DNA from: an uncultured virus (IMG/VR IMGVR_UViG_2820362221_000001)
Taxonomy: Duplodnaviria > Heunggongvirae > Uroviricota > Caudoviricetes
Length of the DNA stretch: 64,000 nt
Strand: one strand, 5' to 3'
Virus record (IMG/VR): IMGVR_UViG_2820362221_000001
Location: 1-64,000 of that record
In this document: positions 21,071 to 23,193 of the stretch, in pieces
Numbering within the stretch: the stretch's first letter is position 1
Layout of the letters: each line of letters starts with the position of its first letter
The notes under the pieces: model-generated
The model's input: only the letters and a program-made list of their open reading frames with translations
Databases searched by the model: none
Told to the model about the DNA's origin: nothing
Position numbers and translations under genes: made by a program

Positions 21071-21319
21071 ATGAGCCTCAAGCACAAAATTTGTATCAGC
21101 GTGAGCCGCCCGAATAACGAAACTTCTGAAATTATAAAGAGCGGCTCGCGCACGATACGAAGCAAACTATTAAAATTCCTGTTCGGAGAAAAAGTCGGAG
21201 TGTTAATCCTAACGCCGGGCAGGACGGTAGAAACCGTGGAAATACGCGAAGTACCGGAAAGGGGTGACGACGGTGACGAAAACGCCGAACCAACGGCAAT
21301 ACCCACCGATGCCGGTTAA
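21071..21319 (+). CDS. Hypothetical phage protein
   Basis: RBS aaggag; operon position. Confidence 0.7.
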   Translation: MSLKHKICISVSRPNNETSEIIKSGSRTIRSKLLKFLFGEKVGVLILTPGRTVETVEIREVPERGDDGDENAEPTAIPTDAG

Positions 21320-21446
21320 GGCGACGCCGTATAAACACCAGCGCGAGGCGTTTGAACTCGCCTGCAGATTGTTCGGTTTATCGGAAGGTGGTGACGCCCA
21401 ATCCTCCATTAAGAGCCAAGGCGTGGCTCTCTTAATGGAGATGTAG
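21264..21446 (+). CDS. SNF2-family helicase, N-terminal segment (Q motif to first half of Walker A)
   Basis: 'PYKHQREA' Q motif and 'GVALLMEM', then TAG. Confidence 0.75.
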   Translation: MTTVTKTPNQRQYPPMPVKATPYKHQREAFELACRLFGLSEGGDAQSSIKSQGVALLMEM

Positions 21447-21451
21447 CCATA

Positions 21452-22747
21452 GGAACGGGAAAAACCATCACGAGTATCGCCGTAGCGGGAGCGTTGTATC
21501 TATCAGAGAAAATCCGGCGTATCCTTGTCGTCGCTCCGCTCTCCATCCTTGGCGTGTGGGAAGAGGAATTCGCTAAGTTCGCGGACTTTGATTATACCCT
21601 TGCCGTTTTATCCGGCGTTGGCGCAAAAAAATCTGATACTCTTCGACATATGGACGGAACTCCCTTGCAGGTAGCCGTGGTAAATTACGAATCGGCATGG
21701 CGGTTAGAAAATGATATTCTCGCATGGAATCCTGATCTTGTAATCGCCGATGAAGGACATAAAATAAAAACCTACAATATCTCCGCGTCAAAAGCCATGC
21801 ACCGTATCGGCGCGAGAGCAACGTACCGTCTGCTGCTCACCGGCACCGTTATCACCAATAAAGCCATCGATGTGTTCAGCCAGTATAAATTCCTGAATCC
21901 GGCGATATTCGGCAACAGCTTTTATTCATTCAGGAATCGTTATTTCGACATGGTCGGTTACGGGAATCATACGCCGGTATTGAAACAATCTATGGAACAG
22001 GAATTAATGAAGCGACTCCACAGCATCGCGTTCCGGGCGACAAAAGCAGAGTGCCTCGACCTGCCAGAAACAACGGATATCATACGGTACGCGGAACTTG
22101 AACCGGCTGCCGCAAAAGTGTACCGCAATTTGGTGAAGGACAGTTATGCTGAACTTTCTAAAGGCGAAGTGACGGTAACAAATGTTTTGACGCGCCTGCT
22201 CCGGTTGTCGCAGCTTACGGGCGGATTCATCGGAGACGACGAAGGAAACACACCGGTTCGTATCAGCACGGCGAAACAAAACGCTCTGGAGGATATTATT
22301 GAAGAAGTTATGCAGGAAGGCAAAAAACTGGTTATCATCGCCCGTTTTGTGCCGGAGATTATGGCTATCTGCAAACTGCTGGAAAAACGCGGCATCGGTT
22401 ATTCCCGCATCATGGGCGGCGTTAAAGACCGCGACGAACAGGTTTCGGCGTTCCAGAACAATCCGGATATACAGGTTTTTGTCGGGCAGATTGCCACGGC
22501 GGGACTCGGCATCACGCTCACCGCCGCCGGCACGATGGTTTTCTATTCGATGGATTACAACATGAGTAATTTTGAGCAGGCAAAAGCGCGTATCCACCGC
22601 GTCGGTCAGAAAGAAAACTGCGCATATATTTACCTGACAGCCAAAGGCACAGTCGACGAAAAGATACTCAAAGTGTTACAAAATAAGGCAGACTTGGCGA
22701 AAACGCTGATAGATGATTACCGGCAAGGTCTGAACCCATTCCAATGA
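21452..22747 (+). CDS. SNF2/DEAD-like helicase, main segment (starts at GTGKT; no RBS-linked start)
   Basis: GTGKT at 21452 in frame with ORF 21494; DEGH, 'LLLTGT', 'GLGITLT', 'QAKARIHRVGQ' motifs. Confidence 0.9.
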   Translation, partial: GTGKTITSIAVAGALYLSEKIRRILVVAPLSILGVWEEEFAKFADFDYTLAVLSGVGAKKSDTLRHMDGTPLQVAVVNYESAWRLENDILAWNPDLVIADEGHKIKTYNISASKAMHRIGARATYRLLLTGTVITNKAIDVFSQYKFLNPAIFGNSFYSFRNRYFDMVGYGNHTPVLKQSMEQELMKRLHSIAFRATKAECLDLPETTDIIRYAELEPAAAKVYRNLVKDSYAELSKGEVTVTNVLTRLLRLSQLTGGFIGDDEGNTPVRISTAKQNALEDIIEEVMQEGKKLVIIARFVPEIMAICKLLEKRGIGYSRIMGGVKDRDEQVSAFQNNPDIQVFVGQIATAGLGITLTAAGTMVFYSMDYNMSNFEQAKARIHRVGQKENCAYIYLTAKGTVDEKILKVLQNKADLAKTLIDDYRQGLNPFQ

Positions 22748-22764
22748 AAGGAGTCATTTATTTT

Positions 22765-23193
22765 ATGGAAGAATTATTTATCCTCGCGGACAACCTCCGC
22801 GAACTGCGCGAGGAAAGAGACGCACAAACGGCAATTCTCAAAGATATCAATACCGAAATCGACTCGGCTGAATACAACCTTTCGGAAGCGATGGCGGCAG
22901 CCGAATGCTCCAATTTCACTCGCGGCGACAAGCAGTTCATTCTTACCGCTACCACGCGCTGGTCAGCCGAAACAGAGCGTAAAGACGAGTTATACGCCGT
23001 ACTCAAAGAAAACGGATACGACTATCTGTTTACGGTGAACACGCAGACACTCGGTTCTTTTATCCGCGAACAAGTCGGCGAAACGGCGGACGAGAACGGC
23101 GAACCCCGCGTTCCCGGCTGGCTGTCGGGGCTTGTCAAAAGCTACGACGACGTTGGAATCACAATGAAATCAACAACAAAAAAATCAAAATAA
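22765..23193 (+). CDS. Phage replication-module hypothetical protein
   Basis: RBS aaggag; coiled-coil N-terminus; between helicase and SSB-like gene. Confidence 0.65.
   Translation: MEELFILADNLRELREERDAQTAILKDINTEIDSAEYNLSEAMAAAECSNFTRGDKQFILTATTRWSAETERKDELYAVLKENGYDYLFTVNTQTLGSFIREQVGETADENGEPRVPGWLSGLVKSYDDVGITMKSTTKKSK

What the first reader, a model, noticed from the sequence alone, without database searches (positions are those of the whole stretch)
21380..21500. SNF2 helicase split inside Walker A by an 8-nt ATG-TAG-CC-ATA spacer: candidate translational bypass
Seen: the upstream ORF ends ...GVALLMEM (ATG 21441) TAG; 8 nt after that ATG codon, in another frame, comes GGA ACG GGA AAA ACC (GTGKT). 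Removing exactly TAGCCATA restores LLMEMGTGKT, the canonical SNF2 motif I. The spacer ends in ATA, a near-match of the take-off ATG, right before the resume codon. An SD-like AAGGTGGTGA lies about 50 nt upstream inside the coding region. Known: take-off codon, stop, then matching landing codon is the layout of T4 gene 60 bypassing. Inference: programmed ribosome hopping could gate an early replication gene of this prophage family; a simple -1 shift would leave extra residues in the P-loop. A random 8-nt insertion or assembly error is also possible.
Basis: partly seen in the sequence, partly recalled or inferred. Interest (0 to 1): 0.8.

Follow-up and report, generated by a model that had tools for sequence, protein, structure and literature searches.

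The report
Ribosome-hop gap in phage helicase gene
Eight extra bases that start with a stop codon break the ATP-binding loop of a prophage helicase gene; many related phages carry 4 to 10 base breaks of the same design at the same spot, often beside a selfish DNA-cutting gene, so ribosomes most likely hop over the gap.

Summary
Window 21444-21451 (TAGCCATA) interrupts an SNF2 helicase gene between ...ALLMEM and GTGKT. It is not an assembly error: contigs of two runs from two studies hold it unchanged.

Of 157 distinct homologous alleles, 39 are interrupted at the same three codons, by 20 different junction types (inserts of 4-10 nt). In all 20 the upstream frame meets a stop with no foreign sense codon first. 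In 19 of 20 the codon before the resume point matches the last decoded codon in at least 2 of 3 bases. Skipping the insert always restores MEMGTGK[TS].

Downstream ORFs stay open and under strong purifying selection, even within clades that share one insert (pN/pS 0.05-0.12).

24 of 39 interrupted alleles, against 3 of 118 intact ones, carry an HNH endonuclease gene inside the helicase gene about 50 nt upstream. Distant relatives of that HNH sit by other helicase families with the same kind of break.

Best reading (0.72): a short translational hop over an insert that probably protects against a homing endonuclease, as in T4 mobA/gene 60. The window keeps the insert but has no HNH gene. No protein or RNA evidence exists. 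I found no published description.

The parts
21264..21443 (+). N-terminal coding segment of the SNF2 helicase, ending in the take-off codon (...PYKHQREAFELACRLFGLSEGGDAQSSIKSQGVALLMEM). The start is uncertain: GTG 21264, GTG 21273 or ATG 21309.
   Evidence: It aligns with the N-termini of intact homologues.
21385..21394 (+). SD-like AAGGTGGTGA (codes E-G-G-D). It is a hallmark of interrupted alleles and corresponds to the ribosome-binding region at the edges of the HNH cassette in relatives.
   Evidence: The motif lies 61-74 nt before the Thr codon in 30 of 39 interrupted against 1 of 118 intact alleles. Cassette anatomy.
21430..21454 (+). Predicted hairpin. The stem is 21430-21438 with 21447-21454 (8 pairs, one bulge). 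The 8-nt loop 21439-21446 holds the take-off ATG and the stop TAG.
   Evidence: MFE fold. The same stem (CTTATGG / CCATAGG) appears in L057 and L060. It is not general to other junction types, so its role is open.
21441..21443 (+). Take-off codon ATG (Met), the last codon decoded before the gap.
   Evidence: junction table.
21444..21448 (+). Coding gap TAGCC: stop codon TAG followed by C (a poor termination context), not decoded.
   Evidence: C after the stop in 16 of 20 junction types.
21449..21451 (+). Landing codon ATA, which matches ATG in positions 1-2. The peptidyl-tRNA-Met is proposed to re-pair here.
   Evidence: TAGCCATA is identical in three lineages whose flanking third codon positions are only 33-57% identical.
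21452..22747 (+). C-terminal coding segment, resuming at GGA (GTGKTITSIAVAGALY...): SNF2 ATPase core and Helicase_C, with the stop codon at 22745-22747.
   Evidence: There is no ATG/GTG/TTG between the gap and TTG 21494.

Best explanation
The 8 nt at 21444-21451 are a short programmed coding gap. SHOWN BY SEQUENCE: the ribosome reads ...ALLMEM and then meets TAG followed by C in the A site. INFERRED: peptidyl-tRNA-Met leaves ATG 21441, the mRNA slides 8 nt, the tRNA re-pairs with ATA 21449, and decoding resumes at GGA 21452. This gives one SNF2 helicase with an intact Walker A (LLMEMGTGKT). INFERRED ORIGIN: the insert is the target-breaking part of an HNH homing-endonuclease cassette. In relatives that cassette sits inside the helicase gene about 50 nt upstream and splits it. 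In the window the HNH gene is gone and the two pieces are fused again, leaving the SD-like footprint (SEGGDA...SIKS) and the gap. By analogy with T4 MobA/gene 60, the insert would protect the allele from cleavage by such endonucleases brought in by co-infecting phages, while hopping keeps the helicase working. Cleavage, protection and hop efficiency are all untested.
For: (1) Recurrence. There are 175 loci including the window and 157 distinct alleles: 39 interrupted and 118 intact. Every interruption falls at the Glu, Met or Gly codon of MEMG.
(2) Design. In 20 of 20 junction types the insert begins with a stop in the upstream frame. The landing codon equals the take-off codon in 5 types, matches 2 of 3 bases in 14, and matches 1 of 3 in one (GGT to AGC). 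The base after the stop is C in 16 of 20. Skipping always restores MEMGTGK[TS]. Insert lengths are 4, 5, 6, 7, 8, 9 and 10 nt, so no single frameshift or readthrough fits them all.
(3) Selection. Within clades that share one insert, pS is 0.09-0.35 and pN 0.006-0.022, with no indels. All 38 interrupted alleles whose ORF ends inside the locus keep a full-length open downstream ORF. The peptide ALLME(M)(G) before the stop is kept through synonymous Leu and Glu codon changes.
(4) Insert constraint. TAGCCATA is identical in 3 lineages and TAGCTG in 4, while flanking third positions are 24-62% identical.
(5) HNH link. An HNH_3 gene (PF13392) lies within the helicase gene in 24 of 39 interrupted against 3 of 118 intact alleles (Fisher p = 4e-15). 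Two near-identical pairs show the cassette or insert inside a divergent tract that ends just past the insert.
(6) Generality. Distant HNH relatives lie beside other helicase families that carry breaks such as GTC|TAG|GTC, CTT|TGAGG|CTT, GGT|TGA|GGT and GGC|TAACT|GGC.
(7) The insert is real DNA.
Against: No protein, ribosome-profiling or RNA evidence exists for any member.
- The window's landing codon is only a 2-of-3 match, and the window has no HNH gene; none was found in its genome with one query (genome 91% complete).
- Junction types are not all independent, and alleles are spread by recombination. The interrupted/intact state changes at least 20 times on a 147-row tree. Part of the divergence between interrupted alleles could therefore predate the inserts.
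- The independent-pairs test for HNH against interruption is weak: 6 pairs, median p 0.06.
- Five +4/+5 junctions have a literal match of only 1 of 3 bases (GGT to AGC twice, GGT to GAC twice, GGC to AGT).
- L184 has a 16-nt insert with no stop right after ATG, and L293 (CTT|TGA|GTA) fits the rule poorly.
- Three alleles have the HNH gene but no insert (L064, L087, L090).
- No general stimulatory RNA structure was found (mean z -0.92 against -0.17).
- From recall of the bench literature, hops of this kind in E. coli constructs are inefficient.
Confidence: 0.72

Rival explanations
1. Termination and re-initiation. The ribosome stops at TAG and restarts at the nearby near-cognate codon ATA, or at CTG, TTG, ATC or ATG in relatives. 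The helicase is then made as two chains that assemble.
For: In Met-type junctions every landing codon is a possible weak start: ATA, CTG, TTG, ATC. In GAG|T|GAG|ATG types a true ATG follows the stop by 1-2 nt. In the window GGAG lies 8 nt before ATA. Split helicase halves do exist in the HNH-bearing alleles.
Against: Gly-, Val- and Leu-type junctions have no start-like codon after the stop: GGT|TGACCC|GGT, GTC|TAG|GTC, CTT|TGAGG|CTT, GGC|TAACT|GGC. The cut would fall between strand beta-1 and the P-loop. In HNH-bearing alleles the upstream piece would be a 14-16 residue peptide, yet its sequence is conserved.
Confidence: 0.1
2. Frameshifting or stop-codon readthrough. Extra residues (for example MEM-VAI-GTGKT after a -1 shift in the window) are tolerated in the P-loop.
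For: A -1 shift at ATG-TAG would enter the open downstream frame from 21443. 4-nt inserts such as GGT TAG C could be read by an RF2-like +1 shift, adding one residue.
Against: It needs at least three different mechanisms (+1, -1/+2, readthrough) at one site across relatives with inserts of 4-10 nt. It leaves the take-off/landing codon matches unexplained (19 of 20, p = 8e-15 under independence). It would add 1-3 residues inside motif I, which is invariant in all 118 intact alleles.
Confidence: 0.07
3. Inactivating scar. The insert only makes the allele resistant to the endonuclease, or is repair debris, and the helicase is dead and dispensable.
For: The window has no HNH gene and is a prophage. 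Interrupted alleles are scattered among intact ones, as recent conversion events would be.
Against: Within clades that share one insert, pN/pS is 0.05-0.12 with no indel, and 38 of 38 downstream ORFs are intact. The GTGK[TS] codons right after the gap are kept in all 39. The insert itself is constrained. Random scars would not begin with a stop and end with a matching codon.
Confidence: 0.06
4. Assembly or sequencing error, or a removal step at DNA or RNA level (slippage between 3-nt repeats, splicing).
Against: Contigs of two runs from two studies hold the insert with 0 differences. Identical or similar inserts occur in dozens of unrelated assemblies. No intron family matches around the site in 6 loci, and inserts of 4-10 nt are too small for any known self-splicing RNA (established knowledge).
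Confidence: 0.03

Closest known systems
Phage T4 gene 39 / mobA / gene 60 element: HNH homing endonuclease plus 50-nt translational bypass (Manning and Atkins, bioRxiv 10.1101/2022.08.31.505936, abstract and section 12 read; Bonocora 2011 seen only as a citation and recalled)
   Same: An HNH gene splits an essential DNA-enzyme gene. The downstream piece restarts at its own ATG, and a few codons later (14-16 here, 46 in T4) comes a non-coding insert with a take-off codon, an immediate stop and a matched landing codon. All the variant forms that paper describes are seen here too: nuclease plus gap, nuclease lost with gap kept (the window), nuclease with no gap, and pieces re-fused.
   Different: The gap is 1-7 nt (a hop of 4-10 nt) instead of 47 nt. 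No general take-off stem-loop was found, and no nascent-peptide signal or SD inside the gap was looked for. The target is the Walker A of SF2 helicases, not topoisomerase II. The HNH shows no sequence likeness to the T4 mobA remnant. Many different junction sequences occur at three neighbouring codons.
Synthetic 'stop-hops' and short hops in E. coli (Weiss et al. 1987, as described in Atkins et al. 2016, PMC5009743, passages read)
   Same: Matched codons flank a stop, so that 9 nt specify one amino acid. ATG TAG CTG, GGT TGA GGT and GTC TAG GTC in relatives are exactly this layout; the window is a +8 version.
   Different: Those were engineered constructs. The review passage says that no natural in-frame stop-hopping occurrences were known. 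Here the layout is natural, conserved and tied to a mobile element.
Candidate UUA-triggered bypass of 10-nt inserts in the Streptomyces phage Hau3 terminase (Antonov et al. 2023, PMC10732093, passages read)
   Same: Short inserts (10 nt) in an essential phage gene, with a take-off codon, a slow A-site codon and a landing codon. A junction peptide was found by mass spectrometry in E. coli.
   Different: The trigger there is a rare sense codon (UUA) and the proposed role is regulatory. No endonuclease link appears in the passages I saw, and the gene and host are different.
Mitochondrial 'byp' elements of Magnusiomyces (mentioned; details recalled)
   Same: Many short non-coding inserts in coding genes are skipped by the ribosome, with matching take-off and landing codons.
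   Different: Longer inserts (27-55 nt, recalled), a mitochondrial translation system, and no associated endonuclease gene reported to my knowledge.

Membership tests
Programmed translational bypassing (hopping) | Take-off and landing codons that the same peptidyl-tRNA can pair with | tested here: met
   Window: ATG to ATA (2 of 3). Family 1: 19 of 20 junction types match in at least 2 of 3 bases, 5 of them exactly. Other helicase families: 13 of 19.
Programmed translational bypassing (hopping) | Stop or slow-to-decode codon in the A site at take-off | tested here: met
   TAG 21444 comes directly after ATG. In 20 of 20 family-1 junction types no foreign sense codon precedes the stop, and C follows the stop in 16 of 20. 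Exception elsewhere: L184.
Programmed translational bypassing (hopping) | Both coding segments maintained by selection, with no independent start for the second | tested here: met
   Within-clade pN/pS is 0.05-0.12, and 38 of 38 ORFs are intact. There is no ATG/GTG/TTG between the gap and 21494.
Programmed translational bypassing (hopping) | One polypeptide spanning the gap, lacking gap-encoded residues | not testable with these tools
   This needs mass spectrometry or a reporter assay.
Programmed translational bypassing (hopping) | Stimulatory signals (take-off hairpin, nascent peptide, SD) | tested here: inconclusive
   A hairpin with take-off codon and stop in its loop appears in the three TAGCCATA alleles only. 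Mean z is -0.92 (39 interrupted) against -0.17 (118 intact). The SD-like element lies 47 nt upstream.
T4 MobA / gene 60 cassette (homology) | Endonuclease homologous to MobA, inserted in the topoisomerase II large subunit, with a 50-nt gap | tested here: not met
   BLASTP of the L058 HNH against T4 gp60.1 gives E = 0.033 over 15 residues. This is a weak test, because T4 mobA is defective. The target is SNF2 and the gaps are 1-7 nt. The resemblance is an analogue, not membership.
Free-standing HNH homing endonuclease cassette | HNH nuclease gene next to or inside its target gene, with patchy distribution among close relatives and flanking conversion tracts | tested here: met
   This holds for relatives, not for the window. 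PF13392 at 1.9e-11 and 7.6e-12. At least 8 changes of HNH state on the tree. Pairs L164/L114 and L076/L115. No HNH was found in the window's genome with one query.
Free-standing HNH homing endonuclease cassette | The nuclease cleaves insert-free alleles and spares insert-bearing ones | not testable with these tools
   This needs a cleavage assay or mixed infection.
SNF2 family helicase/ATPase (PF00176 + PF00271) | SNF2-related N-lobe with motif I (GxGKT) and a Helicase_C lobe | tested here: met
   PF00176 at 1.8e-29 and PF00271 at 2e-12 on P0001. Motif I is complete only if the gap is skipped.

The most novel reading that the evidence does not exclude
Natural short ribosome hops ('stop-hops' of +4 to +10 nt) form a widespread, selected class in phages. 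HNH homing-endonuclease cassettes plant a tiny stop-led insert in the Walker A codons of SF2 helicase genes (at least two SNF2 subfamilies and one PTGxGKT helicase). This blocks cleavage of their own allele, and the host gene survives because peptidyl-tRNA (Met, Glu, Gly, Val or Leu) re-pairs a few bases downstream. The window is a survivor that lost the nuclease but keeps an invariant 8-nt gap, possibly with its own hairpin signal. This would be a second, independently evolved and much more diverse counterpart of T4 gene 60, and it would supply dozens of natural sequence variants for working out the rules of hopping.
Probability: 0.65. Interest if true: 0.9.

Novelty: new variant of a known kind. 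Interest (0 to 1): 0.85.

Why it matters
According to the review passages and preprint sections I read, utilised translational bypassing in bacteria and phages is known essentially from T4 gene 60 and its homologues, plus the candidate Hau3 case. Natural in-frame stop-hops are said to be unknown there. This gene family offers about 40 natural junction variants. They differ in stop codon, gap length, frame and tRNA, and all restore the same invariant motif. That makes a ready-made mutational series for testing what makes a ribosome hop. It also shows that the pairing of a homing endonuclease with a coding gap is a recurring solution, not a T4 oddity. On the practical side, gene callers split or discard these helicase genes. 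Knowing the rule would let annotation pipelines recognise them.

Tried and rejected
- blastn of window 21200-22800 against the phage collection found no match. By protein, the nearest cultured phages are only 51% (THSA-485A) and 47% (FP_Epona) identical. Their matches are single tblastn pieces annotated as one gene; I did not examine their Walker A junctions.
- One HNH query (L033) against the window's own genome found nothing. This shows little, because the genome is 91% complete and only one query was used.
- The HNH of L058 against PDB sequences gave nothing better than E = 0.25.
- Rfam at E <= 0.1 on L018, L033, L058, L164, L187 and L091 found no intron or other family at the site.
- No RNA holder was listed among the sequencing runs, so nothing can be said about expression.
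- A general take-off RNA structure was not found.
- The upstream-anchor regex failed for all loci and was dropped. The Walker A regex missed 34 of 80 loci and was replaced.
- The family-2 scan keeps the 80 best of 527 relatives and is therefore biased towards intact genes (78 intact, 2 interrupted). I do not use it for frequencies.
- Earlier notes of this scan by place and by sequence returned nothing.
- Considered and rejected: recoding of TAG as a sense codon (TGA and TAA variants occur at the same site); a group I intron (the HNH ORF fills the insertion, and Rfam has no match); and regulation by the upstream SD acting on the hopping ribosome (47 nt is too far; inference).
Full report
**1. 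What is in the window**

In frame 0 the sequence reads CTC TTA ATG GAG ATG TAG. The last ATG is at 21441-21443 and TAG is at 21444-21446. After CC ATA (21447-21451), GGA ACG GGA AAA ACC follows from 21452 in the frame of the long ORF that runs to 22747. The upstream ORF ends ...SEGGDAQSSIKSQGVALLMEM*. The downstream part is an SNF2 ATPase: PF00176 at 1.8e-29 and Helicase_C at 2e-12. There is no ATG, GTG or TTG between the gap and TTG 21494. The neighbours are phage replication genes, namely a sigma-like protein, several PHROGs of unknown function and a family A DNA polymerase. The window lies in a 2.59-Mb genome.

**2. Not an error**

Contigs of two runs from two studies, both labelled termite gut metagenome by the tool, hold the stretch with 0 differences and no indel.
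- X1, which may be the source, covers 21250-21750.
- X2 covers 21250-21573.

**3. The same break recurs**

Homologous loci came from three collections:
- Genome contigs: 17 loci, 14 of them close homologues that cover the junction;
- Viral contigs: the best 80 of 480 relatives;
- Metagenome contigs: the best 80 of 496 relatives.

The classification dropped L015 (a fragment), L016 and L017 (26-29% identity) and L018 (the window itself). Together with the window this leaves 175 loci, or 157 distinct alleles by a 750-nt key. Of these, 118 are intact (...[LF]L[MIFL][EQ]MG.GK[ST]) and 39 are interrupted (two misclassified loci were corrected). Because only the best-scoring loci are kept, 39 of 157 is not a population frequency.

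**4. Anatomy of the breaks**

There are 20 junction types, with inserts of 4 to 10 nt. In every type the upstream frame reads normal codons up to Glu, Met or Gly of MEMG and then meets TAG, TGA or TAA with no foreign sense codon first.

The take-off codon was defined as the codon before that stop, so the non-trivial point is that the stop is the first codon of the insert. The landing codon was fixed by homology alone, as the codon just before the point where the normal sequence resumes.
- It equals the take-off codon in 5 types: GGT|TGACCC|GGT, GGC|TGACAA|GGC, GGA|TAACTC|GGA, GGA|TAGCCC|GGA and GAG|T|GAG.
- It matches in 2 of 3 bases in 14 types, for example ATG|TAGCC|ATA (the window), ATG|TAG|CTG, ATG|TAGC|TTG, ATG|TAGC|ATC, GAA|T|GAC and GGC|TGACCC|CGC.
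- It matches in 1 of 3 bases in one type, GGT|T|AGC. Positions 2-3 fit a Gly tRNA that reads GGC/GGT; this tRNA point is inferred.

Chance expectation for at least 2 of 3 matches is 10/64. Getting 19 of 20 has p = 8e-15 if the types were independent, which they are not fully. The base after the stop is C in 16 of 20 types (p = 4e-7). By recall, C after a stop is the weakest termination context in bacteria and is the one used at the RF2 shift site.

Skipping from take-off to landing always restores MEMGTGK[TS]. Lengths of 4, 5, 7, 8 and 10 nt need different frameshifts, and 6 and 9 nt would need readthrough. One hop rule covers them all.

**5. Selection**

Between interrupted alleles, pN is 0.10-0.24 and pS 0.65-0.89. 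Because inserts move between backgrounds (section 7), the stronger test is within clades that share one insert and one HNH gene. There pS is 0.09-0.35 and pN 0.006-0.022, a ratio of 0.05-0.12, and all ORF lengths are identical.

All 38 interrupted alleles whose ORF ends inside the locus are full length; one more runs off its contig. The peptide just before the stop is kept through synonymous change (CTC/CTT/TTA/TTG/CTG for Leu, GAA/GAG for Glu).

The insert itself is constrained. TAGCCATA is identical in the window, L057 and L060, while flanking third codon positions are only 33-57% identical. TAGCTG is identical in four lineages whose flanking third positions are 24-62% identical. The 9-nt Gly types vary in stop codon and middle codon but keep the pattern stop-C-NN-GGN.

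**6. The endonuclease link**

In 24 of 39 interrupted alleles, against 3 of 118 intact ones, an HNH motif lies 150-190 nt before Walker A (Fisher p = 4e-15). One of the 15 alleles counted as HNH-less, L140, has only about 130 nt of upstream sequence, so its status is really unknown.

The ORFs are HNH_3 (PF13392, at 1.9e-11 and 7.6e-12), and L033 also has a zinc finger. The two HNH groups are homologous: 33% identity, E = 6e-18.

The anatomy is as follows:
- The N-terminal helicase piece ends after ...LFGLxxGGD plus a short tail.
- The HNH ORF starts within that region, behind an SD.
- The HNH stop overlaps or precedes a second SD and an ATG. This ATG restarts the helicase 14-16 codons before the gap (MNISSKGAALLMEMG|, MSKENALSRGVALLME|).

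No Rfam intron family matches, and the HNH ORF fills the insertion. It is therefore a free-standing nuclease that splits the gene.

Four forms exist:
- HNH with gap: 24 alleles.
- HNH without gap: 3 alleles (L064, L087, L090).
- Gap without HNH: 15 alleles. Some are still split (L007, L074). Others are re-fused.
- Neither: 115 alleles.

The window belongs to the re-fused group. Its SEGGDA-QSS-IKSQG lines up with L033's AKGGDA-[HNH]-MSMTPIKISPG.

The SD-like GGNGGTGAY lies 61-74 nt before the Thr codon in 30 of 39 interrupted alleles against 1 of 118 intact ones; the one intact case is the HNH-bearing L064. It is present in 15 of 15 HNH-less interrupted alleles. I read it as the cassette's ribosome-binding region left behind. 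Whether it still has a role is open.

**7. Mobility**

The tree used 147 distinct C-terminal proteins (FastTree). Rows under 380 residues and identical proteins were left out. On this tree the interrupted/intact state changes at least 20 times and HNH presence at least 8 times. The independent-pairs test has only 6 pairs; interruption goes the same way as HNH in 4.8 and the other way in 0.1, with median p 0.06.

Two near-identical pairs show the events directly.
- L076 (10-nt gap, no HNH) and L115 (intact) are nearly identical on both sides. They differ strongly from the helicase start to about 15 nt past the insert.
- L164 (HNH with gap) and L114 (intact) differ by the cassette and a tract reaching about 90 nt downstream.

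These look like co-conversion tracts around a break near the Walker A codons. That is an inference; no cleavage site is known.

**8. Beyond this family**

A scan with the HNH alignment (A2) kept the best 80 of 348 relatives. HNH proteins 30-42% identical to the query lie next to or inside a second SNF2 subfamily (...GLFLDMGLGKT...). Many of those genes are broken in Walker A by the same design:
- GGT|TGA|GGC (L187)
- GGT|TGA|GGT (L197)
- GGT|TAG|GGC (L202)
- GGT|TA|GGT (L196)
- GGT|TA|GGA (L194)
- GGT|TAAG|GGC (L203)
- GGT|TGAA|GGC (L211)
- GGC|TGAAATA|GGA and GGC|TGAAATA|GGT (L200, L213)
- GGC|TGATAG|GGT (L185)
- GTC|TAG|GTC (L188)
- CTT|TGAGG|CTT (L190)
- GGT|T|AGC (L195)
- GGT|T|GAC (L198, L201)
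- GGC|TG|AGT (L207)

A different SF2 helicase (MPTGCGKT) has GGC|TAACT|GGC behind an HNH gene (L229). One HNH-less case, GGT|TGA|GGC (L309), turned up among the best 80 family-2 loci, of which 78 are intact.

Of these 19 further junctions, 13 match in at least 2 of 3 bases.

Two cases do not fit the rule:
- L184 has a 16-nt insert with no stop right after ATG (landing codon ATT).
- L293 has CTT|TGA|GTA five codons upstream.

**9. Mechanism proposed**

Shown: the sequence layout, its recurrence, the selection on both halves and on the insert, and the HNH association.

Inferred: that the ribosome hops, that the insert protects against the nuclease, and that the window's allele descends from an HNH-bearing one.

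In the three TAGCCATA alleles a hairpin puts the take-off ATG and the stop in an 8-nt loop, with the landing codon in the 3' arm. In the window the stem pairs 21430-21438 with 21447-21454. At take-off its 5' arm would lie inside the ribosome, so its role, if any, is unclear. Other junction types lack it.

**10. Comparison with the literature**

Searches found no paper that combines SNF2 with bypassing.

The closest known system is the T4 MobA/gene 60 element (Manning and Atkins preprint; outline, abstract and section 12 read). That text describes the same set of forms, including loss of the nuclease with the bypass retained, and states that the insert prevents self-cleavage.

Passages of Atkins et al. 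[quoted passage not shown]

Passages of Antonov et al. 2023 report a 10-nt bypass candidate in the phage Hau3 terminase, with a junction peptide detected in E. coli.

The Cluster O mycobacteriophage paper (passages) mentions bypassing only as one possibility next to an HNH insertion.

Supplements of these papers were not read.

**11. Earlier notes of this scan**

These are unchecked AI notes and are not independent evidence. Searches list similar readings in other genomes. They include an SNF2 gene with an 11-nt insert between CTT codons beside an HNH cassette (e1-5888540), and a GTT-TAG-GTT stop-hop in a helicase Walker A (e1-5988090). My loci L190 and L188 show the same kinds of junction. 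Nothing was on record for this genome or for this protein family.

**12. Verdict**

The 'gating' idea is not supported. The more likely role is protection against a homing endonuclease, of which the window keeps only the footprint. No product has been seen, and bench tests are needed.

Noticed in passing
L064, L090, L087 (Walker A at about 2233, 3065, 1248): Three alleles have the HNH gene inside the helicase gene and a restart ATG, but an uninterrupted Walker A (MSFTHSTGAALLMEMGTGKS). How they would avoid cutting themselves is unexplained. The nuclease may be inactive, or the target may be altered elsewhere.
   Followed up: partly
L184:700-770: A family-1 allele behind an HNH gene has a 16-nt insert (ATG|CCAGTAAGCCCTT|ATT|GGA) with no stop directly after the take-off codon. 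It is an exception to the rule, a decaying copy, or a 'hungry codon' variant.
   Followed up: no
L293 (about 45 nt before GKT): An in-frame 6-nt insert, CTT TGA GTA, lies five codons upstream of Walker A in the second SNF2 subfamily. It has an RF2-like CTT TGA, a poor codon match and no HNH nearby.
   Followed up: no
L229:2900-2970: A different SF2 helicase (..VMPTGCGKT..) directly behind an HNH gene carries GGC|TAACT|GGC in its Walker A, so the design is not limited to SNF2.
   Followed up: partly
L091:1634-1796: A DUF2800 RNA motif (RF02960, 110.7 bits, E = 4e-19) lies upstream of the helicase region in one related phage contig.
   Followed up: no
window 21413-21429: A perfect 6-bp hairpin (GAGCCA / TGGCTC, 5-nt loop) lies inside the coding sequence, directly before the junction hairpin.
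   Followed up: no
L015 (same contig as L006): The contig that holds the intact allele L006 has a second match to helicase residues 167-403 only, about 50 kb away. This is possibly a fragment or a second prophage.
   Followed up: no
L020, L022, L100, L106 (intact alleles): These intact alleles carry GGCGGYGAT 48 nt before the Thr codon. That is a different spacing from the 61-74 nt seen in interrupted alleles. They may be alleles that once held the cassette and lost the insert.
   Followed up: no
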